Source: a virus
Taxonomy: Duplodnaviria > Heunggongvirae > Uroviricota > Caudoviricetes
IMG/VR virus record: IMGVR_UViG_3300028048_000107
Span: 76,254-92,075 of that record
Length of the DNA stretch: 15,822 nucleotides
Direction: 5' to 3' (one strand)
A model generated the notes under the pieces. That model was not told the DNA's origin. It did no database searches and worked only from the letters and a program-made list of their open reading frames with translations. This document shows positions 1 through 12,098 of the stretch, piece by piece (the first letter of the stretch is position 1; each line of letters opens with the position of its first letter). The position numbers were made by a program, and so were the translations under genes.

Positions 1-3000
1 AACTTATCAAAATCATCTATCAAGTATATAATGTTATTTTCTATTTTATCCAATATACTATTATAAATATATTCTTTAGTTTTTACCTTCCTAATACCAA
101 ATCTATTATCAGAACACTTAGCATACAAATTAGATAAACTAATTGTACCAAAACCTCTTTCCTCTTTAAGTTCTCTATAAGGATTTATTATTCTAACTGG
201 CTTATATATATTAGTATTATCAGTATTTATCTCATATATATAAGAATAATCTATATCTGAAGCAACATATGGAAATATTATTCCCCAATAATAAGGATCT
301 GCTAATTTATGAGCAAATAAAACTTCATCATTAGAAATACTACCATCAAATGATGCCAAATACTTCCACTCACCATCAGAGCCTCTAAATACAAAATTTG
401 TTACTCCCGAATCAGGTTCTGCTGAAGGATATATAGGAGAAATATTAGATGTTTTTGTCCCAGTAAGATTCAGAGAATATTTATTACCTTCTACATGTAC
501 AGTTACAGGTTTTGCATCTTTTCCTGGAGGCATATATGTATAACTATATTCTGTGTGAGTTATGTAATTAGCTCCTCCTCCAACATATAAAGGATATTTA
601 GAAGTATAATTATCTGTATCAGGACTACCAAATACAATAGTTTGAAATATAGGTTTTAAACTTGGATATCTATTAGAGGTTAGTTGATAGGTAATTGTTC
701 CACTATAAGCATCTCTAGTAAAATAAAAATAAACGCTGTCATAACTAAGCTTTTCTTTTTCTGAATAAACTATCCAAGGACAACCAGAACCATAAATAGG
801 ATAAGAATAATTATTATCTACATTAGGACTATTATCATCTTCTTTATGATAATTAATTAATCCTAACATACTTTTATTAGTTATAGGATCAATAACAAAA
901 TCATAAACTTCCTTACATGTTCCTCCACCTTGATAATATGAAGGAGATAATGGATCATATACTGTATGTAAATTAACGTCTAATATATCGGCACTCACAC
1001 CATCATATGCTTGTGTACCACCCTCTACAGTTCTTATCTTATCAAATCTATCTGAAAAAGGTAATTGAGTAAATGAAGCATAATAACATGGTGATTTTGT
1101 ATTAGACGTATGATGACTAAGCGTTATATGCCTATGCAAAGAACTTTCAAAAAAGAAATAGTTTAATCCAGCATCTATATATACCCAATCATCGTCTGTT
1201 GATAAATTTAATTCATCTACCAGCATTTTTACAGATGGCATATATGCTTGTGATATATAAGAACTTTCATCAAAATCCTTATAAATTAATTTGCTAAACT
1301 CCTTATAAGAACTTACACTATCATCATACATGCAAACATAATTATCTAGAGCAATAGGTATATTATGTTTAATACATGAGGCTTTCAGATCTAGATAAAA
1401 ATTATACAGTGTTTTTGAATATACAATCATAGGTATAAAGGCAACATTAAAAACATTATTTTCAAATGCCAAAATATCTGATGTCCATTTATCAATTAGA
1501 GATACTATCTCTGCCACTGTAAAACCATAAATACATAAAAATTCAAACCCATAGACAATTACTTGACCGCCACCACCAGTACCTCCAGCATAAAAAGTGT
1601 AAAAACTAGTCTCTAGCTCATCTAAAATACCTTTCTTAGTTAATAATGGGTATGTTATAGGTCTACTAAACACAGAAGCATGATTAAACCCAAAATCTAG
1701 AGGATAATAATTATTATCAAATCTTGGGTCAGCCCAAAATTTAGGCCCACCATATTTTGTCTCTTTATAAATAGAGTCATTGGCTATAAACCCAAACAAA
1801 CAAAGTATCCCTGTAAATCCTCTAACAGCAAAATAAATCCCATCTTCTATACCTTTCTTGAGAATAGATTCCATTAAAGCTTCATAATTTGTATCATAAC
1901 TTGGTTGTATTACATAATCAGGAGGTAATGTATAAGTAATCTCCTTATATTCCGCATTATGAAAATAAGCACCTAATTGAATACGTTCCCAAATAACGTC
2001 TGCAAAATACTCTGTAAGACAAAAATCACTACTACTAATAGGATATTTCCCCCAAAAAATATTATCAGGTAATTCTGTACATATAGCCATATTTCTAAAG
2101 TCATCAACAGAAGGGAAAGATTCTAAAATATATTTTCTACAATCATAATATTGTATTCTATCTCCATAACCTTTAGATTCAATATACTGAACAATAGTTA
2201 AATCATTGCTACTTAAATCACCAGTCAATGATTGTACATATGCTTCATTAGTTATAATATTATCAACTACATCACATAAACGTAAAAATGAAAAATCATA
2301 AAATTTAACATAAAAATCATATTCAACAGCATCTTCATAATCACTATCAATATTACTTAAAACATCAACTATATTTGGTGAATCCCATGGATTAAAATAA
2401 TTATATAAATGCTCTGCCCCAATTAAAATATAGTGCCTAGTCTTAAATGGGTAAGCCTTACTAAATGCTTCCATATCACTAACATCATCATAATCGCTTA
2501 TACCTAAACTAGTATTCCACTCATGCATATAGGTGCTCATACTGTAAATAAAACCATGAATATCAGATCCATTTTTCAAAGAACTATAAAGTCCATAAGC
2601 TTCTAGATAGTGTTCGGATGAGCCATGAGGCATTGGAGGGCCAAAAGCAAATGTACTTACAATATCTGGGTAAGTATATACAAAAACGCCATTCTCTTTA
2701 CGAGGCCCTTTACGAGATGTCATAACACACTCATCAAAATCATGCTTATATCCAATATCAATATAATCAATATCATTTCTCTCTACAGCGTCATCAAAAG
2801 GTATTCTTATTGTAGATCCATATTTACTATTTAAATACTCTGGACTTGTACATAAATCCCACTCATTTAATCCTACATGATATCTTGTATAAAAATCAAC
2901 TAACTCATCGCCAATAAGATCAAATCTTTTATTATTTGCTCTGCCATATTCAAAAGCTACGCCATCAGAAACTTTATATTCAAAAATTTCAAAATCTGGT

Positions 3001-3983
3001 AATGGGTGTTCAAAAGATAAATCTATACCTTTCTTACTAGTATGTTTTATATACCATCTTAACCATATATATCCTGTTGTATACCATCTTAAAGTATCAG
3101 TAGCATTATTATCAAGACCTGCTTGAAACATAGATACAGAACCAGCTGTAGCCAACAACCCGTCTTTACGTGTATCATCAGCACCTGCTATAAGTTCAGC
3201 AGTACCTTCAATAAAATATTTAGGCAATTTAGCGTTAAACCCAGAAATATTAGCTGACATTACACCGTGTACTAATTCATGACATAATGTACGATCTAAA
3301 AACATGTTTGAACCTGCATAAGAATTTGCTTTGCCATTAGGATTTGTTAAATCCATATCTCCATATGCTGCTGGATTGGTATTAACAGCACACTCCATCT
3401 TATTAGTCTTAAATGTTGTTGTATCATAATATGACCTTACATATGCCATAATAATAGCTCCACCGCTAGAAGGAATATTATCTAACTGTATAGGCATTGT
3501 TGTAACAAATGAATTCTCATCAAACTTTAACCCATAAGCTTGCTCGACTAAATCAAAAGCACCTTTTAGCCACCACTTACTCATACACTTCATAATAAAC
3601 TGTCCAGATGGATTTAAGCTATTATATGGCGGATAAGTAACTGTAAGACCATTTATTACCTCAGTAGATGGAGGAACTACTAGTTCAGACACATCACCTT
3701 CTGGTACTATATCATATTTATCTAGTACTGGGCCACCAGAAGCATCAAAACCAACTATTGATCCAACATCATCATTTTCTAAATCTATATTACAACTATC
3801 CCATAAAAAAGCTTTGGGACTTGATGCTGACTGTATATCAGCAACAATAGCATCTGATACAGACTGTGCTGTAGGAAATTCACCATTAGAACAAAAATCA
3901 ATAGCTAAATCTAGTTTATTATCTGTTGGAGGCAATTCCACTAATTTTGCCATTAACTGTTTTAATTTATCTTGTGGTTTCAA
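1..3983 (-). CDS. Large putative virion/tail-associated protein (>=1327 aa, 3' end beyond window) with N-terminal gluzincin-type zinc metallopeptidase domain; absent from supplied ORF track
   Basis: Hand translation from TTG at 3983 (RBS GGGGGAGGT just upstream) is stop-free to position 1: MKPQDKLKQLMAKLVELP...WWLKGAFDLVEQAYGLKF...LDRTLCHELVHGVMSANISGFNAKLPKYFIEGTAELIAGADDTR...YPLYVGGG...NFVFRGSDGEWK...IDDFDK. HELVH at 3267-3281 (H235-H239); third ligand E259 in IEG. Distal motifs resemble the neighbouring 332-aa protein. Function is inferred. Confidence 0.9.
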   Translation of the reverse strand, partial: MKPQDKLKQLMAKLVELPPTDNKLDLAIDFCSNGEFPTAQSVSDAIVADIQSASSPKAFLWDSCNIDLENDDVGSIVGFDASGGPVLDKYDIVPEGDVSELVVPPSTEVINGLTVTYPPYNSLNPSGQFIMKCMSKWWLKGAFDLVEQAYGLKFDENSFVTTMPIQLDNIPSSGGAIIMAYVRSYYDTTTFKTNKMECAVNTNPAAYGDMDLTNPNGKANSYAGSNMFLDRTLCHELVHGVMSANISGFNAKLPKYFIEGTAELIAGADDTRKDGLLATAGSVSMFQAGLDNNATDTLRWYTTGYIWLRWYIKHTSKKGIDLSFEHPLPDFEIFEYKVSDGVAFEYGRANNKRFDLIGDELVDFYTRYHVGLNEWDLCTSPEYLNSKYGSTIRIPFDDAVERNDIDYIDIGYKHDFDECVMTSRKGPRKENGVFVYTYPDIVSTFAFGPPMPHGSSEHYLEAYGLYSSLKNGSDIHGFIYSMSTYMHEWNTSLGISDYDDVSDMEAFSKAYPFKTRHYILIGAEHLYNYFNPWDSPNIVDVLSNIDSDYEDAVEYDFYVKFYDFSFLRLCDVVDNIITNEAYVQSLTGDLSSNDLTIVQYIESKGYGDRIQYYDCRKYILESFPSVDDFRNMAICTELPDNIFWGKYPISSSDFCLTEYFADVIWERIQLGAYFHNAEYKEITYTLPPDYVIQPSYDTNYEALMESILKKGIEDGIYFAVRGFTGILCLFGFIANDSIYKETKYGGPKFWADPRFDNNYYPLDFGFNHASVFSRPITYPLLTKKGILDELETSFYTFYAGGTGGGGQVIVYGFEFLCIYGFTVAEIVSLIDKWTSDILAFENNVFNVAFIPMIVYSKTLYNFYLDLKASCIKHNIPIALDNYVCMYDDSVSSYKEFSKLIYKDFDESSYISQAYMPSVKMLVDELNLSTDDDWVYIDAGLNYFFFESSLHRHITLSHHTSNTKSPCYYASFTQLPFSDRFDKIRTVEGGTQAYDGVSADILDVNLHTVYDPLSPSYYQGGGTCKEVYDFVIDPITNKSMLGLINYHKEDDNSPNVDNNYSYPIYGSGCPWIVYSEKEKLSYDSVYFYFTRDAYSGTITYQLTSNRYPSLKPIFQTIVFGSPDTDNYTSKYPLYVGGGANYITHTEYSYTYMPPGKDAKPVTVHVEGNKYSLNLTGTKTSNISPIYPSAEPDSGVTNFVFRGSDGEWKYLASFDGSISNDEVLFAHKLADPYYWGIIFPYVASDIDYSYIYEINTDNTNIYKPVRIINPYRELKEERGFGTISLSNLYAKCSDNRFGIRKVKTKEYIYNSILDKIENNIIYLIDDFDK

Positions 3984-5318: not shown

Positions 5319-5471
5319 TCACATGTATCTTGACTTCCAAATGCAGTATACTTTCGTATCTTTTGCATCTGGGTCATCAATATAAGCTTTAGCCATATTT
5401 AAATATGTTTTAGTATCTTCACCTAATATTTTACTAAAATCTGAATGTAACATATTAAGTAAATAGTACCA
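5319..5471 (-). CDS. Exon 2 (50 aa + stop) of the IStron-interrupted conserved phage hypothetical protein (148 aa spliced)
   Basis: TGG TAC TAT... gives WYYLLNMLHSDFSKILGEDTKTYLNMAKAYIDDPDAKDTKVYCIWKSRYM*. It begins right after the terminal G of the element, has no start or RBS of its own, and joins in frame to ...KYNKFD of exon 1. Confidence 0.9.
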   Translation of the reverse strand, partial: WYYLLNMLHSDFSKILGEDTKTYLNMAKAYIDDPDAKDTKVYCIWKSRYM

Positions 5472-5612
5472 CTGAAACCTCTCACGACTAAAGTCGCGAG
5501 GTTCTTAGAAATTACTCTCTAAGCTTTCTTTCATAAGAAAGATTCTCGGTCAATGACTCTATCGAGCCAAGTCTCTCCGAGCTAACCCCGTAAGTCCTAC
5601 GGTTTTTATATT
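5452..5612 (-). ncRNA. Predicted TnpB omegaRNA (reRNA): scaffold to 5472 plus guide from exon 2 (UGGUACUAUUUACUUAAUAU)
   Basis: After the tnpB stop: AACCGTAGGACTTACGGGGTTAGC...GAATC...GAACCTCGCGACTTTAGTCGTGAGAGGTTTCAG, the typical IS605 right-end/omegaRNA layout. The 5' boundary is uncertain and may overlap the end of tnpB. Confidence 0.75.
5481..5500 (-). repeat. IS200/IS605 right-end subterminal hairpin
   Basis: CTCGCGAC-TTTA-GTCGTGAG, 9 nt from the element end; matches the left-end hairpin at 16/20 positions. Confidence 0.8.
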
Positions 5613-6785
5613 TTACGCTAATTTTAAACCCTCATTTAAAATGTTTATTGAAGCATTTATGTCTCTATCATGCTGTGTTTTACAACTTGGACATGTCCAC
5701 TCTCTTACATTAAGATTTTTTGTGTCCTCATTCTTATATCCACATACATGACATGTTTGACTTGATGCAAAGAATGTATCTATTTTAATTAGTTTCTTAC
5801 CATACCATTCACATTTGTATTTAAGTATTTCTACAAACTTACTCCAAGATACGTCTGAAATCGCTTGTGCAAGTTTATGATTTTGTAGCATATTCTTAAC
5901 CTTAAGCGTTTCTAAGCAAATAATATCATAAGTTCTTACTAATTCAGTAGTATACTTTTGAAGAAAATCTTCTCTCATATGTCTAATATGTTCATGAAGT
6001 TTTGCTACTGCTAACTTATTCTTCTTCCAACGATTACTACCAATTGATTTTCTTGATAATGCCCTTTGAAGTTTTTTAAGTCTTTTTAGCTCTTTCTTCA
6101 AAAACTTTGGATTTTCTTTCTTTGCTCCATCAGAAGTTATTGCAAAATCCTTTAGACCTAAATCTATACCAACTTTCCTATTAGTTTTTGGCAATGGTTC
6201 TAATACTACATCAGTACAACATATTGATACATAATACTTTCCACTTGGTTCTTGTGAAATAGTTGCATTCAATATTCTACCTTGTAATTTTATCCTATCT
6301 CTATACCTAACTTTACCAAGTTTAGGTAGTTTGATATATTTACCAATTACTTCTATACTATTATTAGTAAAAGTTGTCTTGTAAGATTTCCAGCCATCTT
6401 TCTTAGATTTAAATTGAGGATGACCATTAAGGTCAAATCTTGTAGGCTCTCTCCCAATCTCAACTAAATGTGCTAATTTCTTTGGGGTATATTTTGGCCC
6501 TTCCTTTTGAATCTTGAAAAATCTATCATATGCTTCACTAAGGAACTTAGTAGCATTTTGCAATGCCCACTTATCTGGCTCTTTAAGCCAAACAAGTTCC
6601 TTCTTTAATTTAGTAAGTTCCCTACTCAATTTAGCATACCCAAAACCTTTTTCGCCAGACTCAAAAGCCTTTTCCTTTCTATCTAAGAAATGATTGTAAA
6701 CGTATCGAGTACAACCAAAAGTCTTTTGCAATAATATTTCTTGTTCTTTTGTTGGATATATTCTGACTTTAAATGCTTTTTCCAT
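5613..6785 (-). CDS. tnpB: RNA-guided endonuclease TnpB (IS200/IS605 family), apparently intact
   Basis: N-terminal KAFKVRIYPTKEQ...FGCTRYVYNHFL; RuvC-I VGIDLG, RuvC-II LETL, Zn ribbon CHVC/CPSC, RuvC-III DRDINAS; RBS GAGGTG. Confidence 0.97.
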   Translation of the reverse strand: MEKAFKVRIYPTKEQEILLQKTFGCTRYVYNHFLDRKEKAFESGEKGFGYAKLSRELTKLKKELVWLKEPDKWALQNATKFLSEAYDRFFKIQKEGPKYTPKKLAHLVEIGREPTRFDLNGHPQFKSKKDGWKSYKTTFTNNSIEVIGKYIKLPKLGKVRYRDRIKLQGRILNATISQEPSGKYYVSICCTDVVLEPLPKTNRKVGIDLGLKDFAITSDGAKKENPKFLKKELKRLKKLQRALSRKSIGSNRWKKNKLAVAKLHEHIRHMREDFLQKYTTELVRTYDIICLETLKVKNMLQNHKLAQAISDVSWSKFVEILKYKCEWYGKKLIKIDTFFASSQTCHVCGYKNEDTKNLNVREWTCPSCKTQHDRDINASINILNEGLKLA

Positions 6786-6806
6786 TGTACTCTCACCTCG
6801 AAATAT

Positions 6807-6835
6807 AGTATAACATATTTTGAGCCAAAAGTCAA
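6807..6835 (-). promoter_or_regulatory. Intron-internal promoter for tnpB/omegaRNA
   Basis: TTGACT (6835-6830), 17 bp, TATACT (6812-6807), extended TG, about 20 nt above the tnpB start. Confidence 0.75.
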
Positions 6836-6859
6836 GTAAAATATAAAAACCTTTGTCGT

Positions 6860-7284
6860 GTTTTGTGAGGTTTGTCGTTCCTGTAAAAGCGTTACCCCTT
6901 ACAGAGTTCTCTTATGAACTTCCTGTAGATTTCCTACAGGCACAGACTATATCTTATCCATGCCACAAAATAAATTTGTAGTTTAGGTCTATTTATGTCC
7001 CTAGCACTTACTAGGTACTTCCCTCAAGAGGAATAGTCGTTGAACTAATTTCTTAGCTACTGATTGTCCATTTTTTAACATTTAGGATTTAACCTTATGC
7101 TATGCAGTTAATTATTTTTATTTTCATAACCTACATTTAGATTTAACTGCCTTTAGGAGTTTCCAGTAATTAAAATAGTATTGCATAGAATAATATTCTA
7201 TGACTATGTACTTATTTCTAAATACACTGACTAGTTTGTTCGCCTAACTCATGACTGAATTCACGAGTGTGCGGCTCACAGTTA
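6860..7284 (-). ncRNA. Group I intron catalytic core, subgroup IA2-like
   Basis: P AATTACTGGAAACTCC, Q GGACAATCAGTAGC, R GTTCAACGACTA, S AAGATATAGTC. P7 GACUA/UAGUC, P3 CUAUUU/AAAUAG, P7.1 and P7.2 hairpins, P9 with GAAA loop. IGS GUCAG (7231-7227) pairs with exon UUGAU including the U.G pair; P10 ACUA/UGGU. Confidence 0.93.
7248..7267 (-). repeat. IS200/IS605 left-end subterminal hairpin, located in the intron P1 loop
   Basis: CTCGTGA-ATTCAG-TCATGAG, 17 nt inside the element; sequence-similar to the right-end hairpin. Confidence 0.75.
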
Positions 7285-7578
7285 ATCAAACTTATTATAC
7301 TTTAAGTTTTGAGAGTTTAATAGTTGAGTTGTTTGAGATAAATCCCAATGCTCACCTTTTGTTCCGTCTACGTTATCCATCTCTGCAACAGCGTATTTCG
7401 ATAAATTTTCACTAAAATGCTTTCCAAATATTGCTTCATGTACTGTTAACATTGCTTTTACATATGCATCTTGATTAACATATCTCATTTCCCCTATGCT
7501 TTTCATGACAGCATCGTAAAACTTCTTCTGCAAAGTTGGATTGCCCTCAATTGCTTTCCAATATTCCTTTTCTTCCAT
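7285..7578 (-). CDS. Exon 1 (98 aa) of IStron-interrupted conserved phage hypothetical protein
   Basis: The track's 98-aa ORF ends TTT GAT|TAA, where TAA is the first 3 nt of the intron. The spliced product reads ...GTKGEHWDLSQT...KYNKFDWYYLLNMLHSDF..., a continuous motif I recognise from gut-phage hypothetical proteins (from memory). Confidence 0.9.
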
Positions 7579-7580
7579 GA

Positions 7581-8021
7581 TTAACTTACCCTAAATATTG
7601 TTAACGTACCTGCTAACAATGTACCTGCTTGCCCCAAAAATTTAACTTCTAATGATGCATTATTATTTACCATAGGACAAGATGGTTTAACCTGTACTAT
7701 AGTTTGAAAATTTATATTTGCAATTGCTGTATCCGCAATAGAAGTTGCTCTTGCTTGGGCATTAGGTATAGCAATGCCATTATTATACAATTGAAAGGAG
7801 AATGTGCCATCACTAGAATCCACAGTAGATGCTGCACCAGTATTATAACCAGTAGCATTAAATTCTACTACATAATATCCTGGTCTTGTTATACTTACTA
7901 CTGGTGTTCCAGCTACATGAGTTATTTTACAACAAGAATCTACATTGTTTGTATTAAATACAACACTATCTCCAGTGTTTAGAGAAACACCTAAATCACT
8001 TATAGTATATGTTTCTAACAT
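7581..8021 (-). CDS. Hypothetical all-beta protein, 146 aa (possibly a BclA-CTD/C1q-like jelly roll)
   Basis: RBS AAGGAGG; alternating beta-strand pattern (GYYVVEFNA, FSFQLYNNG, INFQTIVQV, LTIFRV). Fold is a guess. Confidence 0.75.
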   Translation of the reverse strand: MLETYTISDLGVSLNTGDSVVFNTNNVDSCCKITHVAGTPVVSITRPGYYVVEFNATGYNTGAASTVDSSDGTFSFQLYNNGIAIPNAQARATSIADTAIANINFQTIVQVKPSCPMVNNNASLEVKFLGQAGTLLAGTLTIFRVS

Positions 8022-8040
8022 TACTTTATTACCTCCTTAC

Positions 8041-8074
8041 AAAAATATAAAGGGGAAGAATTAAATCTTCCCCT
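8041..8074 (-). terminator. Intra-operon intrinsic terminator/attenuator
   Basis: AGGGGAAGA-TTTAAT-TCTTCCCCT followed by TTATATTTTT. Confidence 0.75.
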
Positions 8075-8096
8075 AAATCTATATTAAAATCTGCTA

Positions 8097-8921
8097 TTAG
8101 GACAACGTACAACCACAACCATTAGCAGAAGCGTAAGGAGAACCTACAGTGTATGCAGGAACAGGATAAGGCTTTAATGCACTAACTAAAGCCTGTGTCT
8201 GTGCAGCATTATCAATCTGATTTCTTGCTGCTTGAAGATCTGACTGAAGAGCATAAATCTGATTATCTTTATCATTCATCTGCATAGTAGTTAATCTGTC
8301 AAGAATTTTCTGAGTATTTGCGTCAGACTCTGCTCTTGTAGCACATGCTTCAGTAGCTAACTGATATTTAACAGCTTCTATATTGTTATTTACACCACAA
8401 ATCTGATTCTGAGTTACATAGCCAAGATTAGCCATACCATTAGTAATTGCATTACCAGTTTGCACCATATTCATGTTTAGTGCATTAGTCTGTTCTGCAA
8501 TACCCATAGCAAGATTATTTGCATTTTGCATAATTGCCATATTAGTAGCATTTGTGTTCTGCAACATGCTATTATTGATATTAGCCATGCCACCCATAAT
8601 AGTAGTATTGATAGTATTTAGTCCTTGTAATTGATTATAACCAAGGGTGTTGATATCATTACCAATGTCACCAAGTTTAGCACTTAAATTCTGATACTGG
8701 AAACCATTATTGATGTCAGCCTGTGTTGCATAATTTGCAAGTGCTTGGTTGTTACCATTACCCCATGGGCCATAACCACCATTACCAAAACCACCCCAAG
8801 CCATTAAGAAAAATAGAAAAAATACAATCCACCCACTTCCATGACCAAAAAAGTCATCATTGTCGTTTCCTACATTGTATACAGGAGTAAGTCCACTCCC
8901 ATTGCTCATAAGATCTGCCAT
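8097..8921 (-). CDS. Hypothetical 274-aa protein: hydrophobic segment + Gly-rich linker + long N/M/Q-rich coiled coil + C-terminal GCGC
   Basis: RBS GGGAGG; WIVFFLFFLMAW (aa 31-42), GGFGNGGYGPWGNG, eight 11-residue repeats at aa 94-181, PYPVPAY..P...GCGC tail. Confidence 0.85.
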   Translation of the reverse strand: MADLMSNGSGLTPVYNVGNDNDDFFGHGSGWIVFFLFFLMAWGGFGNGGYGPWGNGNNQALANYATQADINNGFQYQNLSAKLGDIGNDINTLGYNQLQGLNTINTTIMGGMANINNSMLQNTNATNMAIMQNANNLAMGIAEQTNALNMNMVQTGNAITNGMANLGYVTQNQICGVNNNIEAVKYQLATEACATRAESDANTQKILDRLTTMQMNDKDNQIYALQSDLQAARNQIDNAAQTQALVSALKPYPVPAYTVGSPYASANGCGCTLS

Positions 8922-8995
8922 TTCACATCATCCTCCCGACAACTAGACAGATACAAAAAATACTTATCTATCAACACTAGTAGTAGTGAAAATAT

Positions 8996-9226
8996 TCAAT
9001 TATTATTTATACCAAACATTTGTTTTAATTGATCTAAATTCATTCCTCTTTGCTTACATACATTTTCTAAAATCTTCATTTGTGCTCTATGACTTTTTCC
9101 TTGTAACATTGATTGTGCTCTTTGGAACATAGGATTACTGCCAAACATTTGTTGCATCATAGCTTGAGGATTTCCAGAATTCATTAACATTTGAAGCATT
9201 TGTGCTGGATTAAATTGATTATTCAT
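8996..9226 (-). CDS. Hypothetical 76-aa Met/Gln/Asn-rich helical protein with NP motifs
   Basis: ATGA overlap with the upstream gene; RBS GAGGAG; NPAQMLQML, NPQAMMQQMF, NPMFQRA. Confidence 0.85.
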   Translation of the reverse strand: MNNQFNPAQMLQMLMNSGNPQAMMQQMFGSNPMFQRAQSMLQGKSHRAQMKILENVCKQRGMNLDQLKQMFGINNN

Positions 9227-9627
9227 TTCTTTTTCTCCTCCACATTCCCACCAGTCAAACTATTAAGCATATCTTCTAAATCAGATACTCTCTTTTTTAG
9301 CTTAGATAGTTCTTCATTAACAGGGTCTAGTTTACTATCTTTTACATCTTCCAGTACATAATGTTTTATTACTGAATTACCTTGCATATCAATACATTTA
9401 GTAAATATTGAATTACTAGCTGGATGTGGAAAATACGTTTCAGACCCATCCATATCTACAACACTTGCTTTTACCTCATCTAAAGATGATACTAATCTAC
9501 CTTTAAGACACATCATTGGTTGTTGTGGCATTTGCTGAAACTGCTGTTGCATTGCCTGTTGTGGCATCATTTGCTGTTGAGGCACTGCATATCTATTTTG
9601 CATATAATTTGGATACTGATTATACAA
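9223..9627 (-). CDS. Hypothetical 134-aa protein with Gln-rich N-terminus and C-terminal coiled coil
   Basis: TTG start with RBS AGGAG; 14 Q in the first 39 aa; globular core LKGRLVSSLDEV...YFP; VNEELSKLKKRVSDLEDML. Confidence 0.85.
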   Translation of the reverse strand: MYNQYPNYMQNRYAVPQQQMMPQQAMQQQFQQMPQQPMMCLKGRLVSSLDEVKASVVDMDGSETYFPHPASNSIFTKCIDMQGNSVIKHYVLEDVKDSKLDPVNEELSKLKKRVSDLEDMLNSLTGGNVEEKKK

Positions 9628-9663
9628 GTAATCATCTCCTAGAAATCTATTTTAATGACAAAC

Positions 9664-9703
9664 CAAAGAAGTCCATACTGAATCTACAGCATAGACTTCT
9701 TTG
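9664..9703 (-). promoter_or_regulatory. 17-bp RNA hairpin in the operon 5' leader
   Basis: CAAAGAAGUCUAUGCUG-UAGAUU-CAGUAUGGACUUCUUUG, fully paired on the minus strand with two G.U pairs. Confidence 0.65.
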
Positions 9704-9772
9704 ACCAGCTTTCAAAATACCTATAATACTCATATCATATGTACTTTAAAAACTTATCCACCTTATACTTAT

Positions 9773-9801
9773 ATTGTACCACATATTTCTGATTTTGTCA
9801 A
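9773..9801 (-). promoter_or_regulatory. sigma70/sigmaA promoter of the five-gene operon
   Basis: TTGACA (9801-9796), 17 bp, TACAAT (9778-9773), extended TG. Confidence 0.8.
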
Positions 9802-10458: not shown

Positions 10459-12078
10459 TTAATAATACTTCTCCCATTTAGTATAACCAGATCTCCATAC
10501 CTTACATGCACCACTATCTAACATTACACAATCATCTATATCTAAAGTATCATCTACCTTTTCACCACTAAGATACCAATAATGTTTTGGTATGCACTGA
10601 CAAACATCAATAAATCCCAACGACTTATATATTTCTCCATTAAAATAATCATTATCTGAATAGTACACAATATACTTAGGATTAAAATCTTGCTCAAAAT
10701 GATTCAACAACTTATTAGCACCATCAAATATGTTCAATCCATATTTAGTGAAATACCCGTGAAGCTCATACTGATCACATTCAATGCCGTTCATACTCAA
10801 GTTACCAAATGACATTACAGAGATAAGATCACCACCAAAAAATAGCCCATAATTTATACTGTTAAAATATGTACACCCATGTATATGATACATACTAATA
10901 AAGTTATCAGCTCTGTCATCATCTATCAATAAACATTGACAATCTTTTGCATGTATATTATCAGCATGATCATTTAAAACACAAGATAAATAATTCTTAA
11001 TTTTTTCTTGATTATTGTGCCAATCTATATCAAATATAGAAATAAGATGTACACCTTTTGACTTAGCCAATAAAAATTTATCTCTATGATAATATTTAGG
11101 CTTATCGTCAAAAATGGCACCTAACGATGAATGCCACTCAGAACCATTATACTCAATACCAATATTCTTGTTTACAATAAAAATATCAATTTCTTTGCCA
11201 TCTAAAATAGTTTTATTATGAATTTCTAGTATAATATCAGGAAAATTAACCTTTAACCACTCACATATTTCATGTTCTGCATTTGATCCTCTATGCTGAA
11301 TAAATCTACACCCACATGAAGTTGTTGCTCCACTTCTTAACTTATAACTATCAACAATAACCTTAGTTTTAGCTGAACATGAACAAGTACAATTCCAATA
11401 AGAATGCCCATTGATGAACCCCTTAAATGAATCTACATGCAACATGCCAAACACTTTCCCAGTCAAATCAATAAACCTTGAATGATGTCCATGCTTCCTA
11501 TTGCATATCGAACATGCTACAGTTTTACCATTACGTAACAATGAAGAATATGCAATAAAATAGTTACCGCAATCACACTCACACAACCATTTATCGCCAT
11601 ACAAATGATGCTTAACCACTAAATTACCAAATCTACTACCTTTAATGTTAATAAAATTAACAGAGTGCTTTTTTAGTGCGTGTTTATCCCTGCATACAGA
11701 GCATTCAGTAATCTTTTTTAACATCTTCTCATTAACAACTTCTTGATTCCCACAAGTACATCTAACCAAAATATAATTATTTGTCTTTACCCTCTTCACA
11801 AACCTAACATATATTAAATTTCCCCACACACTTCCTTGTAATCTCTGTATAGTTTTAGACAAAAGCCTAGCTTTCTTCTCACATCCACAAGACAACCTAA
11901 CTCCACCAGTTAATGCGTCAGCTCTAACACTTATAGGTTCACTACCACAATCACATTTACATATCCAGTAACTTCTTGTGCATTTATTACTATTTAAATC
12001 ACTTCTTTCTTTATCATATTTAACCACAGTTAACTTTCCAAATTTTTGTCCAACTAAATTTTTAAAATTCCCATTCAA
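10459..12078 (-). CDS. Free-standing Hef-like homing endonuclease (four Cys-rich repeats + Vsr/DUF559-like nuclease + C-terminal domain)
   Basis: Repeats of the form L.G..FG.L.V...W.C.CDCG...L..G...SCGC occur four times; then EHEICEWL...EIDIFI..KNIGIEYNGSEWH...HRDK...KGVHLISIF; then GANKLL..F...IVYYSD...GEIYKSLGF. Start moved to TTG 12078 because GAGGTGG lies 6 nt upstream (track start was 12093). Confidence 0.75.
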   Translation of the reverse strand: MNGNFKNLVGQKFGKLTVVKYDKERSDLNSNKCTRSYWICKCDCGSEPISVRADALTGGVRLSCGCEKKARLLSKTIQRLQGSVWGNLIYVRFVKRVKTNNYILVRCTCGNQEVVNEKMLKKITECSVCRDKHALKKHSVNFINIKGSRFGNLVVKHHLYGDKWLCECDCGNYFIAYSSLLRNGKTVACSICNRKHGHHSRFIDLTGKVFGMLHVDSFKGFINGHSYWNCTCSCSAKTKVIVDSYKLRSGATTSCGCRFIQHRGSNAEHEICEWLKVNFPDIILEIHNKTILDGKEIDIFIVNKNIGIEYNGSEWHSSLGAIFDDKPKYYHRDKFLLAKSKGVHLISIFDIDWHNNQEKIKNYLSCVLNDHADNIHAKDCQCLLIDDDRADNFISMYHIHGCTYFNSINYGLFFGGDLISVMSFGNLSMNGIECDQYELHGYFTKYGLNIFDGANKLLNHFEQDFNPKYIVYYSDNDYFNGEIYKSLGFIDVCQCIPKHYWYLSGEKVDDTLDIDDCVMLDSGACKVWRSGYTKWEKYY

Positions 12079-12098
12079 AATATACCACCTCAAGCATT

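What the first reader, a model, noticed from the sequence alone, without database searches (positions are those of the whole stretch)
7285..9801. Five-gene operon of unknown function built from low-complexity Q/N/M proteins and a membrane-anchored coiled coil: candidate undescribed phage system
Seen: one promoter, then Q-rich 134 aa, ATGA-coupled M/Q/N-rich 76 aa, 274-aa hydrophobic-segment + coiled-coil + GCGC protein, beta-rich 146 aa, and a helical acidic/aromatic 148-aa protein (spliced), closed by a terminator. From memory (unverified), this gene set recurs in this order as hypothetical proteins in many gut-phage genomes, with no assigned function. Inference: a self-assembling module, such as a cell-surface or virion fibre with a trimeric head, a membrane-inserting superinfection-exclusion or anti-defence device, or a condensate/amyloid-forming compartment.
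Basis: partly seen in the sequence, partly recalled or inferred. Interest (0 to 1): 0.78.

Follow-up and report, generated by a model that had tools for sequence, protein, structure and literature searches.

The report
Widespread uncharacterised phage membrane-stalk cassette
The five genes are real and are one copy of an optional gene cassette that many gut and rumen phages share; it is built around a protein with one water-repelling segment and a 27-nm helical stalk, and nobody knows what it does.

Summary
Promoter, five minus-strand genes (134, 76, 274, 146, 148 aa), ATGA coupling and a closing terminator are all present. Gene 5 is split by a 1,813-nt IStron (group I intron plus TnpB). Sister phages carry the uninterrupted 148-aa gene, which fixes the junction.

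Two corrections:
- A conserved terminator follows gene 3, so the unit is [g1-g2-g3]-T-[g4-g5].
- Only g1-g2-g3 plus a small beta-rich fourth gene recur everywhere. The fifth gene varies.

The cassette occurs in about seven phage lineages: rumen phages, human-gut prophages, C. perfringens siphophages and crAss-like phages. It is present in phage 17DYC and absent from its near-identical relative phiCP13O, so it is accessory and not a core virion part.

- g3 has a short hydrophobic helix, one 181-residue hendecad helix and a Pro/Cys tail.
- g4 is weakly BclA-C/C1q-like.
- g5 (DUF7841) gives a confident model with no fold match among solved structures.
- No defence, lysis or enzyme family matches.

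Best reading (about 0.4): a stalk complex assembled in the cytoplasm and anchored in the host membrane, acting on envelope events.

This scan met the same cassette at least 13 times on other DNA, always with unknown function. I found no paper on it.

The parts
9773..9801 (-). Promoter of the cassette: TTGACA, 17 nt, TG-n-TACAAT.
   Evidence: 11 of 12 matches, TG present; sequence.
9223..9627 (-). g1, 134 aa. It has a Q/M/P/Y-rich N-terminal low-complexity stretch, a conserved small domain (G-R/K-x-V...MDGS...FP...IYxK) and a short C-terminal helix. Family phrog_21718.
   Evidence: (E 1.6e-8). pN 0.26 against pS 0.76 versus L006. Fused to g2 in L103.
8996..9226 (-). g2, 76 aa, M/Q/N-rich helical protein with conserved NPxx motifs. 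Its start is ATGA-coupled to the g1 stop.
   Evidence: (48% identity to the C. perfringens phage homologue). dN/dS 0.19.
8097..8921 (-). g3, 274 aa, the signature protein (phrog_16490). It has an acidic N-terminal 29 aa, a hydrophobic helix at 30-41 flanked by Gly/Trp, a Gly-rich linker, one continuous helix at 68-248 with hendecad periodicity, and a Pro-rich tail ending GCGCTLS.
   Evidence: E 8e-18; 379 homologues; AlphaFold2; 3.67-residue periodicity, p about 0.002.
8051..8074 (-). Internal intrinsic terminator directly after g3.
   Evidence: -17.3 kcal/mol, z -3.9. A terminator-like hairpin follows g3 in 42 of 70 distinct homologous loci, against 29 of 210 control windows.
7581..8021 (-). 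g4, 146 aa, beta-rich with 3 Cys. It is weakly BclA_C / C1q-TNF-like and related to phrog_20016.
   Evidence: PF18573, E 8.4e-5, 22.9 bits, below the cut-off of 38. (phrog_20016, E 6.3e-5). (hhalign to the gut-prophage fourth gene, E 2.5e-4 over 120 columns). (PDB 9H38, E 0.0019).
7285..7578 (-). g5 exon 1, 98 codons, ends ...AAG TTT GAT. This is the first half of DUF7841.
   Evidence: (PF25223, 49.4 bits, profile positions 3-56).
5472..7284 (-). IStron, 1,813 nt, inserted in g5. It contains a group I intron core (7231..6923), its own promoter (6835..6807), tnpB (6785..5613, 390 aa) and a structured right end. It starts after TTGAT and ends in G.
   Evidence: RF00028, 37.3 bits, E 1.9e-7, full-length model match, below the gathering score of 50. 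(OrfB_IS605, Cas12f1-like TNB and HTH_OrfB_IS605 domains). (empty site in sister phages reads TTTGAT|TGGTAC).
5319..5471 (-). g5 exon 2, 50 codons plus the stop. This is the second half of DUF7841.
   Evidence: PF25223 positions 65-109; identical to the sister-phage gene.
5264..5316 (-). Terminator that closes the cassette.
   Evidence: -27.3 kcal/mol, z -6.8, followed by a U run.

Best explanation
This is one copy of a mobile, optional accessory cassette (a moron) shared by phages of gut and rumen anaerobes.

Shown:
- Five real genes lie behind their own sigma-70-type promoter.
- They form two tiers separated by a conserved terminator, [g1-g2-g3]-T-[g4-g5]. The first three products should therefore be made in excess of the last two.
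- g5 can be complete only if the IStron splices out of the mRNA.

Inferred:
- g3 is the scaffold. Its short Trp/Gly-flanked hydrophobic helix sits in the host cytoplasmic membrane.
- Its single 181-residue hendecad helix (about 27 nm) pairs with copies of itself into a parallel coiled-coil stalk.
- Its Pro-rich, Cys-bearing tail is the docking site for the small beta-rich fourth protein. Here that protein is a C1q/TNF-like head.
- The docking would resemble the way proline-rich leader peptides dock into ExsF trimers of the exosporium.
- g1 and g2 are co-translated and fused in one relative. They would act as Met/Gln-rich helpers that hold or deliver g3.
- g5 (DUF7841) is a partner of the position-4 protein.
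- g1, g2, g4 and g5 have no export signal and the proteins are cysteine-rich. The assembly is therefore most likely built on the cytoplasmic side, with only the acidic N-terminal 29 residues of g3 outside.

Likely role, with the least certainty: an accessory device at the membrane of the infected or lysogenic cell. It would control an envelope event, such as exclusion of superinfecting phages or the timing and completion of lysis. It is probably not a part of the virion.
For: Real, selected genes: pN is far below pS for all five.

Recurrence:
- The same order is found in sister phages, in a different phage at another genomic site (L006) and in L007.
- Human-gut prophages carry g1-g2-g3-g4b-x211 in 62 of 80 loci. 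Those 80 loci come from one subfamily and are not independent.
- C. perfringens, lemur and rodent phages carry g1-g2-g3-x119.
- crAss-like phages carry DUF7841-g3.

Accessory nature:
- Phage 17DYC has the cassette. phiCP13O, 93.95% identical by PMC10353432, has no hit to any cassette gene.
- The cassette sits at the att-proximal end beside lysogeny genes in prophages.

Two tiers: a terminator follows g3 here and in 42 of 70 distinct loci, against 14% of control windows.

Stalk: the AlphaFold2 model has a single helix at 68-248, with 3.67-residue periodicity at p about 0.002.

Cytoplasmic assembly: no hydrophobic N-terminus in g1, g2, g4 or g5. Cysteines are conserved in g3. Firmicutes tend to exclude cysteine from exported proteins; this rests on my own knowledge.

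Links between parts:
- g1 and g2 are fused in L103.
- The x119 position-4 domain is fused to DUF7841 in P0163.
- Cys in the g3 tail tracks Cys in the position-4 protein. The one lineage with no tail Cys has a Cys-free partner.

ExsF-type docking of proline-rich peptides into TNF-like trimers: PMC12357932.
Against: - No function is shown for any protein.
- The hydrophobic core is only 12-13 residues and has no flanking charges. Membrane insertion and topology are therefore guesses.
- The C1q/TNF assignment of g4 is below Pfam's cut-off, and g4 was not folded.
- The Cys co-variation rests on about ten lineages, with a single informative zero.
- In this phage and in L006 the cassette lies inside the tail-gene block, next to the tape measure. 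This would also fit a virion-associated role.
- In crAss-like phages it lies next to holin and Rz-like genes, which fits a lysis role better than exclusion.
- No known exclusion, defence or lysis family matches.
Confidence: 0.4

Rival explanations
1. Extracellular or virion-attached fibre. g3 trimers capped by the C1q/TNF-like g4 would form a cross-linked (Cys/Tyr/Gly-rich) adhesive fibre on virions or on released material. This would give gut phages a host-independent ability to stick to mucus, particles or cells.
For: - g4 hits BclA_C, the PHROG families 'collagen like minor tail' and 'virion structural protein', and F-BclA.
- The cassette lies in the tail-gene block here and in L006.
- Every carrier retrieved here comes from a gut, rumen, faecal or sewage sample.
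- Tails rich in Gly, Tyr and Cys resemble cross-linked structural proteins (own knowledge).
Against: - The cassette is optional between near-identical phages.
- It is found in siphophage-, myophage- and crAss-type genomes with unrelated virion parts.
- In prophages it is placed beside the att site and lysogeny genes, far from structural genes.
- No attachment domain to any capsid or tail protein was recognised.
Confidence: 0.2
2. Lysis accessory of the spanin kind. g3 (membrane anchor, long coiled coil, Pro/Cys-rich end) would span the envelope and help to disrupt it at the end of infection.
For: - The architecture resembles an i-spanin, with an N-terminal hydrophobic helix and a helix of about 27 nm.
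- The cassette is adjacent to holin, endolysin or Rz-like genes in crAss-like and rodent-gut phages.
Against: - There is no lipoprotein partner. No lipobox or signal peptide occurs in g4, g5 or in any embedded ORF.
- The cassette occurs in phages of the single-membrane host C. perfringens.
- Here it lies about 30 kb from the holin-like small membrane genes.
- The crAss-like locus already has its own Rz-like candidate.
- Close relatives lyse without the cassette (phiCP13O).
Confidence: 0.12
3. An undescribed anti-phage or anti-defence system carried as prophage cargo. g3 would be a membrane sensor or effector, and g4 and g5 its specificity or effector subunits.
For: - The cassette sits in the cargo slot next to attP and immunity genes, beside Ltp-type exclusion lipoprotein and antirepressor genes.
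- It has its own promoter and terminators.
- Position 4 and position 5 are swapped between lineages.
- DUF7841 has conserved Asp, Asn and Lys residues.
Against: - There is no PADLOC match beyond noise.
- No nuclease, NTPase or other effector domain was found.
- The low-complexity, Cys-rich composition is unusual for defence proteins.
- The cassette is also present in late-gene regions of probably virulent phages.
Confidence: 0.15
4. Condensate or amyloid former. The Q/N/M-rich g1, g2 and g3 would act mainly through prion-like self-association.
For: The composition is Q/N/M-rich. The N-terminus of g1 is Y/Q/P/M-rich in all lineages.
Against: - The N/Q-rich part of g3 is a confidently predicted regular helix with strict hendecad periodicity, not a disordered region.
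- g1 and g2 keep conserved motifs and are under purifying selection.
Confidence: 0.05

Closest known systems
BclA / F-BclA with ExsF (BxpB): exosporium fibres of the Bacillus cereus group (PMC12357932; PDB 9H38, 9H3D)
   Same: Both have a small C1q/TNF-like beta-jelly-roll protein, a long fibrous stalk, and a short proline-rich peptide that could dock into the trimer. The g4 profile hits 9H38 (E 0.0019) and Pfam BclA_C (E 8.4e-5).
   Different: The stalk here is an alpha-helical hendecad coil, not collagen. The head is a separate 146-aa gene, not fused to the stalk. The proline-rich peptide is at the C-terminus of a protein with a hydrophobic anchor. Carriers include phages of non-sporulating hosts. 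The sequence scores are below the family cut-off.
Two-component spanins (lambda Rz/Rz1); comparison from my own knowledge
   Same: Both have an N-terminal membrane helix followed by a long coiled coil with cysteines and a proline-rich far end. In some phages the cassette lies close to holin and endolysin genes.
   Different: There is no outer-membrane lipoprotein partner. The cassette occurs in phages of single-membrane hosts, is optional, and here lies far from the lysis genes.
Phage morons and lysogenic-conversion cassettes, including superinfection-exclusion genes such as Ltp; own knowledge
   Same: It is a self-contained transcription unit with its own promoter and terminators. It is inserted at module junctions or next to attP, and is present or absent between close relatives.
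   Different: Known examples are one or two genes with a recognisable lipoprotein or membrane protein. This is a four- to six-gene set with a fixed order and no member of a known exclusion family.
Catalogued families without function: Pfam DUF7841 (PF25223), phrog_16490, phrog_21718, phrog_20016
   Same: g5, g3, g1 and g4 are members or near-members.
   Different: These are bare sequence families. Neither the cassette nor any function is recorded. I found no paper that mentions DUF7841 or phrog_16490.
IStrons (CdISt1 of Clostridioides difficile and relatives; PMC4227781; bioRxiv 10.1101/2023.11.20.567912)
   Same: The element in g5 has a group I intron at the 5' end and an IS605-family tnpB. 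It is inserted after TTGAT, ends in G, and its removal restores the reading frame exactly.
   Different: It has no tnpA and sits in a phage accessory gene. Another finding of this scan covers it; here it matters only as the reason why g5 is in two pieces.

Membership tests
Pfam DUF7841 (PF25223) | Score above the curated cut-off (25.2 bits) over the whole 114-position domain | tested here: met
   Exon 1 scores 49.4 bits over positions 3-56. Exon 2 scores 21.5 bits over positions 65-109. The uninterrupted sister gene is annotated PF25223. phmmer found 863 clusters.
phrog_16490 (g3) and phrog_21718 (g1) | Significant match to the PHROG profile | tested here: met
   g3 E 8e-18 and g1 E 1.6e-8.
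BclA C-terminal domain / C1q-TNF-like head (PF18573) | Score above Pfam's gathering cut-off (38 bits) | tested here: not met
   22.9 bits, E 8.4e-5. Supporting but weak: the L007 homologue is listed as 'BclA_C (weak)', and the profile hit to 9H38 has E 0.0019.
BclA C-terminal domain / C1q-TNF-like head (PF18573) | Trimeric beta-jelly-roll fold | not tested
BclA-type exosporium fibre | Collagen-like GXY stalk and exosporium leader in the same polypeptide as the head | tested here: not met
   g4 has about 10 residues before the domain and no GXY repeats. The stalk candidate g3 is alpha-helical.
Two-component spanin (i-spanin plus o-spanin) | N-terminal membrane helix followed by a coiled-coil domain | tested here: met
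   Hydrophobic helix at 30-41 and helix at 68-248. Topology was not determined.
Two-component spanin (i-spanin plus o-spanin) | Partner outer-membrane lipoprotein gene (lipobox), embedded in, overlapping or adjacent to the i-spanin gene | tested here: not met
   There is no same-strand embedded ORF of 40 aa or more in g3. g2, g4 and g5 have no hydrophobic N-terminus.
Two-component spanin (i-spanin plus o-spanin) | Position in the lysis cassette | tested here: not met
   Here the cassette lies between the tape measure and the distal-tail genes. The holin-like small membrane genes lie about 30 kb further along the transcription direction. It is adjacent to lysis genes in some other phages.
Known anti-phage defence systems (PADLOC-DB 2.0) | Match of any cassette protein to a defence-system model | tested here: not met
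   Only coiled-coil noise was found (ZorA tail E 0.0011 for a homologue; cyclase E 0.013). No coherent system appeared.
IStron (group I intron plus IS200/IS605 element) | Group I intron core at the 5' end | tested here: inconclusive
   RF00028 gives a full-length match at 7231..6923, 37.3 bits, E 1.9e-7, but below the gathering score of 50. It was not listed at E of 1 or less in the whole-window scan.
IStron (group I intron plus IS200/IS605 element) | IS605-family TnpB gene, and precise insertion whose removal restores the host gene | tested here: met
   OrfB_IS605, TNB and HTH domains. The empty site TTTGAT|TGGTAC in sister phages gives the exact 148-aa gene. Splicing itself cannot be tested here.

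The most novel reading that the evidence does not exclude
The cassette encodes an undescribed phage nanostructure: a homo-oligomeric, right-handed (hendecad) coiled-coil stalk of about 27 nm, anchored in the host cytoplasmic membrane. Its Cys- and Pro-rich tip carries exchangeable small beta-rich heads (C1q/TNF-like or others) and a DUF7841 partner with no fold match among solved structures. Phages of Bacillota, Bacteroidota and possibly archaea would use it as a common device to control what passes the membrane of an infected or lysogenic cell, that is, superinfecting DNA or the lysis trigger. This would be a new class of phage-encoded envelope machinery, about as widespread in gut viromes as some defence systems.
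Probability: 0.3. Interest if true: 0.8.

Novelty: categorically new. Interest (0 to 1): 0.6.

Why it matters
A cassette shared by very many gut and rumen phages, across host phyla and virion types, must do something generally useful. Yet none of its proteins has a known function and no paper mentions it. It is a well-defined target:
- It has cultured carriers: C. perfringens phages 17DYC, PMQ04 and XP41-N3, and, for DUF7841, Bacteroides fragilis phages.
- It has a natural cassette-free control, phiCP13O.

Working it out could reveal a new way in which phages handle the host membrane, through exclusion, lysis control or adhesion. It would also give a function to several 'dark matter' families (DUF7841, phrog_16490, phrog_21718, phrog_20016).

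This window adds four things to the earlier sightings:
- the conserved internal terminator;
- natural fusions that link g1 to g2 and the position-4 protein to DUF7841;
- the co-variation of cysteines between the g3 tail and its presumed partner;
- a copy in which an IStron makes g5 dependent on RNA splicing.

Tried and rejected
- **Complex prediction.** g3 residues 196-274 x3 with g4 x3 gave no verdict (score 0.00, controls not run). It is not used for or against binding.
- **Fold searches with the g5 model.**
  - Foldseek against PDB: best E 0.85.
  - VIA-align against 48,161 chains: best Z 5.1 over 53 residues.
  - BFVD returned only other DUF7841 proteins.
- **PDB profile searches.** g2 gave only a designed protein. 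g1 gave only coiled-coil noise.
- **Family libraries.** NCBIfam and PADLOC gave nothing meaningful. Pfam on longer DUF7841 proteins showed no fused known domain.
- **Rejected weak hits.** GerD, NPV P10 and MtrB hits for g1 and g2 come from low complexity or coiled coils.
- **g2 as an STI1/ubiquilin-like chaperone.** The Met/Gln-rich composition suggested a chaperone for the hydrophobic segment. This stays an idea only.
- **Window against the phage collection.** Megablast gave no match.
- **Locus searches.**
  - The search for related loci with the diverse g3 alignment failed because no stretch was conserved enough.
  - With the neighbouring 332-aa structural protein it found no relatives. Presence or absence in this phage's own lineage beyond the sister phages could therefore not be surveyed.
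- **Endolysin families.** Amidase_2, Amidase_3 and GH25 were not found in the genome. The lysis module was located only through holin-like small membrane ORFs.
- **Papers.** Searches for DUF7841, phrog_16490 and BclA with prophage and coiled-coil found nothing relevant. No virion proteome of a cassette-carrying cultured phage was found.
- **Spore-coat add-on rejected.** Carriers include crAss-like phages, and the DUF7841 gene also occurs in phages isolated on Bacteroides fragilis.
- **Fifth genes compared.** The fifth gene of the gut-prophage version (x211) is unrelated to DUF7841 (hhalign E 0.28).
- **Upstream small genes.** The 61-aa and 54-aa genes upstream are lineage-specific and not part of the cassette.


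Full report
**Setting.** The window is the last 15.8 kb of a 92,075-bp single-contig virus record (CheckV completeness 87%). Every gene of 100 aa or more but three is on the minus strand. In transcription order the window holds:
- a tape-measure-like protein with a tail-lysozyme domain;
- a 544-aa HNH endonuclease;
- two lineage-specific small genes;
- the five genes of the finding;
- a 60-aa gene, a 332-aa structural protein (phrog_687) and a giant tail-module protein.

Near-perfect TTGACA-17-TGnTATAAT promoters precede most of these units. I did not check that.

**Observation.**
- promoter 9801..9773;
- g1 9627..9223 (134 aa, TTG start behind AGGAG);
- g2 9226..8996 (76 aa, ATGA overlap with the g1 stop);
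- g3 8921..8097 (274 aa);
- g4 8021..7581 (146 aa);
- g5 exon 1 7578..7285.

Exon 1 stops at TTTGAT. The frame resumes at 5471 (TGG TAC ...) and ends at 5319. Sister phages with 98% identical g3 carry an uninterrupted 148-aa gene reading ...AAGTTTGAT|TGGTACTAT.... The two exons match Pfam DUF7841 positions 3-56 and 65-109.

The insert has these features:
- a group I intron core (RF00028, 37.3 bits, E 1.9e-7, full-length match but under the gathering score);
- its own promoter;
- a 390-aa TnpB with OrfB_IS605, TNB and HTH domains.

It follows TTGAT and ends in G. That is the IStron design described in PMC4227781 and bioRxiv 10.1101/2023.11.20.567912. Another finding of this scan covers it.

A strong terminator follows exon 2.

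Against the cassette of a different phage (L006, 51-75% protein identity), all five genes have pN of 0.16-0.32 against pS of 0.56-0.76. They are coding and under purifying selection.

**Recurrence.** g3 has 379 relatives at E of 0.001 or less in the word-indexed protein collection. None has a Pfam domain or a name. I found the gene set in about seven lineages.

1. Sister phages carry g1-g2-g3-g4-g5 at the same site without the IStron.
2. L006 carries the same five genes in the same order, but between the tail-tube region and the tape-measure chaperones of another phage.
3. L007 carries a 76-aa gene of uncertain identity and a 75-aa gene in front of g3, then a BclA_C-like gene and a 143-aa gene.
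4. In human-gut prophages (more than 571 IMG/VR contigs for one subfamily alone):
   - the order is g1-g2-g3-g4b-x211 in 62 of 80 loci;
   - five more loci have an extra gene;
   - most of the rest are cut by contig ends;
   - the 80 loci are close relatives and not independent;
   - g4b is phrog_20016, which g4 also hits; the two profiles align over 120 columns at E 2.5e-4.
5. C. perfringens siphophages carry g1-g2-g3 at 33-48% identity, followed by a 119-aa Cys-rich beta protein that I call x119.
6. Lemur and rodent gut phages carry g1-g2-g3-x119.
7. crAss-like phages that read TAG as Gln carry DUF7841-g3-144aa-188aa beside ring and muzzle genes. Many other crAss-like phages have DUF7841 next to holin and LysB/Rz-like genes.

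The fixed core is therefore g1-g2-g3 plus a small beta-rich fourth gene. That fourth gene comes from at least three families. The fifth gene is DUF7841 in some lineages and an unrelated 204-248-aa protein in others.

**A conserved two-tier layout.** A terminator-like hairpin with a U run follows g3 in 42 of 70 distinct loci, against 29 of 210 control windows from the same loci. It occurs in lineages whose g3 is only about 31-33% identical to the window's. No promoter lies between the hairpin and g4 here. g4 and g5 must therefore be read by terminator read-through and should be made in smaller amounts.

**Accessory, not core.** C. perfringens phage 17DYC has antirepressor, g1-g2-g3-x119, then a 175-aa gene. 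phiCP13O shares 93.95% nucleotide identity with it (PMC10353432). It has the antirepressor and the 175-aa gene but no hit to any cassette profile.

The position of the cassette varies:
- In human-gut prophages it is the outermost block next to host DNA or the integrase, beside antirepressor, Ltp-type and HTH genes.
- In other phages it follows the receptor-binding protein or the lysis genes.
- Here it lies among other mobile items (HNH gene, IStron) between the tape measure and the distal-tail genes.
- The holin-like small membrane genes lie about 30 kb further on.

This is how a moron behaves. It is hard to reconcile with an integral virion part.

**The proteins.**

*g3.* The AlphaFold2 model, built with 89 sequences, shows:
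- a disordered acidic N-terminus;
- a helix at 30-41 (WIVFFLFFLMAW, flanked by Gly);
- a disordered Gly-rich linker;
- one unbroken helix at 68-248, with pLDDT up to 93;
- a disordered tail.

Hydropathy along the helix has a sharp 3.67-residue (hendecad) period, with p about 0.002 by shuffling and no heptad signal. A lone helix of about 27 nm must pair with copies of itself or with partners. The family conserves Cys175, Cys193 (CCC in most lineages), P251, P253, P255 and a C-terminal GCGC-type motif.

*g4.* It is weakly BclA_C-like: Pfam 22.9 bits, PHROG 'collagen like minor tail' at E 0.0011, and PDB 9H38 at E 0.0019. 9H38 is the C1q-like head of F-BclA (PMC12357932).

*g5.* The sister-phage copy differs by one residue. 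Folded with 66 sequences, it gives pLDDT 96 as a compact eight-helix domain. It has no convincing relative in the PDB. Asp, Asn, Ser and Lys residues are invariant or nearly so. The family has 863 clusters at 50% identity.

*g1.* It has a Y/Q/P/M-rich head, a conserved small domain and a terminal helix.

*g2.* It is Met/Gln-rich with conserved NP motifs.

None of g1, g2, g4 or g5 has a hydrophobic N-terminus.

**Links between the parts.**
- g1 and g2 overlap by ATGA and are one ORF in L103.
- The x119 domain is fused to DUF7841 in P0163, at 56% identity to the C. perfringens phage x119.
- Cys content of the g3 tail goes with Cys content of the position-4 protein. The counts are 2-5 against 2-7 in nine lineages, and 0 against 0 in the single lineage whose tail ends in ...AGTTII. 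This suggests the tail and the fourth protein meet, perhaps through disulfides or a shared metal site. It is anecdotal.
- In the exosporium, proline-rich leader peptides dock into clefts of the TNF-like ExsF trimer (PMC12357932). The g3 tail (PYPVPAYTVGSPY...) could bind a C1q/TNF-like g4 in the same way.

**Mechanism, with what is shown and what is inferred.**

Shown:
- a selected, mobile, optional, self-contained unit in two tiers;
- a scaffold protein with one hydrophobic helix and a 181-residue hendecad helix;
- partners without export signals;
- an IStron that makes g5 depend on splicing.

Inferred:
- g3 is inserted with its acidic N-terminus out and its stalk in the cytoplasm.
  - Exported proteins of Firmicutes tend to avoid cysteine (own knowledge).
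  - The partners are cytoplasmic.
- It forms a parallel coiled coil.
- The fourth protein caps the tail.
- g1 and g2 handle the hydrophobic scaffold.

Guessed: the device acts on an envelope event of the infected or lysogenic cell, either exclusion of other phages or control of lysis.

I give this reading about 0.4. The rivals:
- a virion or extracellular adhesive fibre, 0.2;
- an undescribed defence or anti-defence cargo system, 0.15;
- a spanin-like lysis helper, 0.12;
- a prion-like condensate, 0.05.

**Comparison with the known.** The cassette matches no characterised system. There is no PADLOC or NCBIfam family, no enzyme domain and no lipoprotein partner for a spanin. I found no paper on DUF7841 or phrog_16490. 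The nearest things are:
- the BclA/ExsF anchoring logic, which shares a fold and a docking principle but has a different stalk and context;
- spanins, which share the architecture of one component only;
- morons in general, which share the genomic behaviour.

**Earlier sightings.** This scan has met the same cassette on other DNA at least 13 times, each time with function unknown. This window is not the first sighting. It adds:
- the conserved internal terminator;
- the two natural fusions;
- the cysteine co-variation;
- the 17DYC/phiCP13O presence/absence pair;
- an IStron-split copy.

Noticed in passing
window 5472-7284 (-): An IStron (group I intron core 7231..6923, own promoter 6835..6807, tnpB 6785..5613) splits g5 exactly after TTGAT. 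The sequence after its right end (TGGTACTATTTACTTA...) is the sequence that would follow TTGAT in the empty site, as expected for a TnpB guide. Another finding of this scan covers the element.
   Followed up: partly
window 6905-6989 (-): A weak LOOT RNA (RF03000) match (30.9 bits, E 0.0018-0.014) lies inside the 3' part of the group I intron region. The LOOT motif may be a piece of such introns rather than an sRNA here.
   Followed up: no
window 12127, 10447, 10389, 10249, 10041, 9801, 5244 (first bases of the -35 boxes, minus strand): A series of perfect or near-perfect extended-10 promoters (TTGACA-17-TGnTATAAT) stands in front of almost every unit, including the tail genes. This phage seems to use host sigma-70-type promoters for its late region too.
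   Followed up: no
window 10459-12093 (-): A free-standing 544-aa HNH homing-endonuclease gene (phrog_559, E 8.6e-53) with its own promoter lies between the tape measure and the cassette. This junction of the tail module collects mobile elements.
   Followed up: no
window 3-3983 (-); genome 75896-80236: A giant tail-module protein (1,446 aa in the genome) has no Pfam or PHROG match at all.
   Followed up: no
L103:7256-7921: In one prophage (NCBI assembly contig), g1 and g2 are a single 221-aa ORF. The same prophage lies directly after a truncated sigma-factor gene following spoIIGA and sigE-like genes. This suggests integration into a sporulation sigma gene, as with skin-like elements.
   Followed up: partly
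P0163 (243 aa, metagenomic protein): A natural fusion joins the Cys-rich beta protein that occupies position 4 in C. perfringens, lemur and rodent phages (x119 family) to DUF7841.
   Followed up: partly
L010/L011:5366-7982: crAss-like contigs that need TAG read as Gln carry DUF7841 (199 aa) directly upstream of a 307-aa g3 homologue. These lie next to a candidate Rz-like gene and the ring and muzzle tail genes.
   Followed up: partly
P0185, P0206 (DUF7841 proteins of 327-377 aa): Long DUF7841 forms carry an RGG-rich linker and a further conserved domain (NRRKLVD...ISC.GE...) plus a coiled coil. No Pfam family matches these extensions.
   Followed up: no
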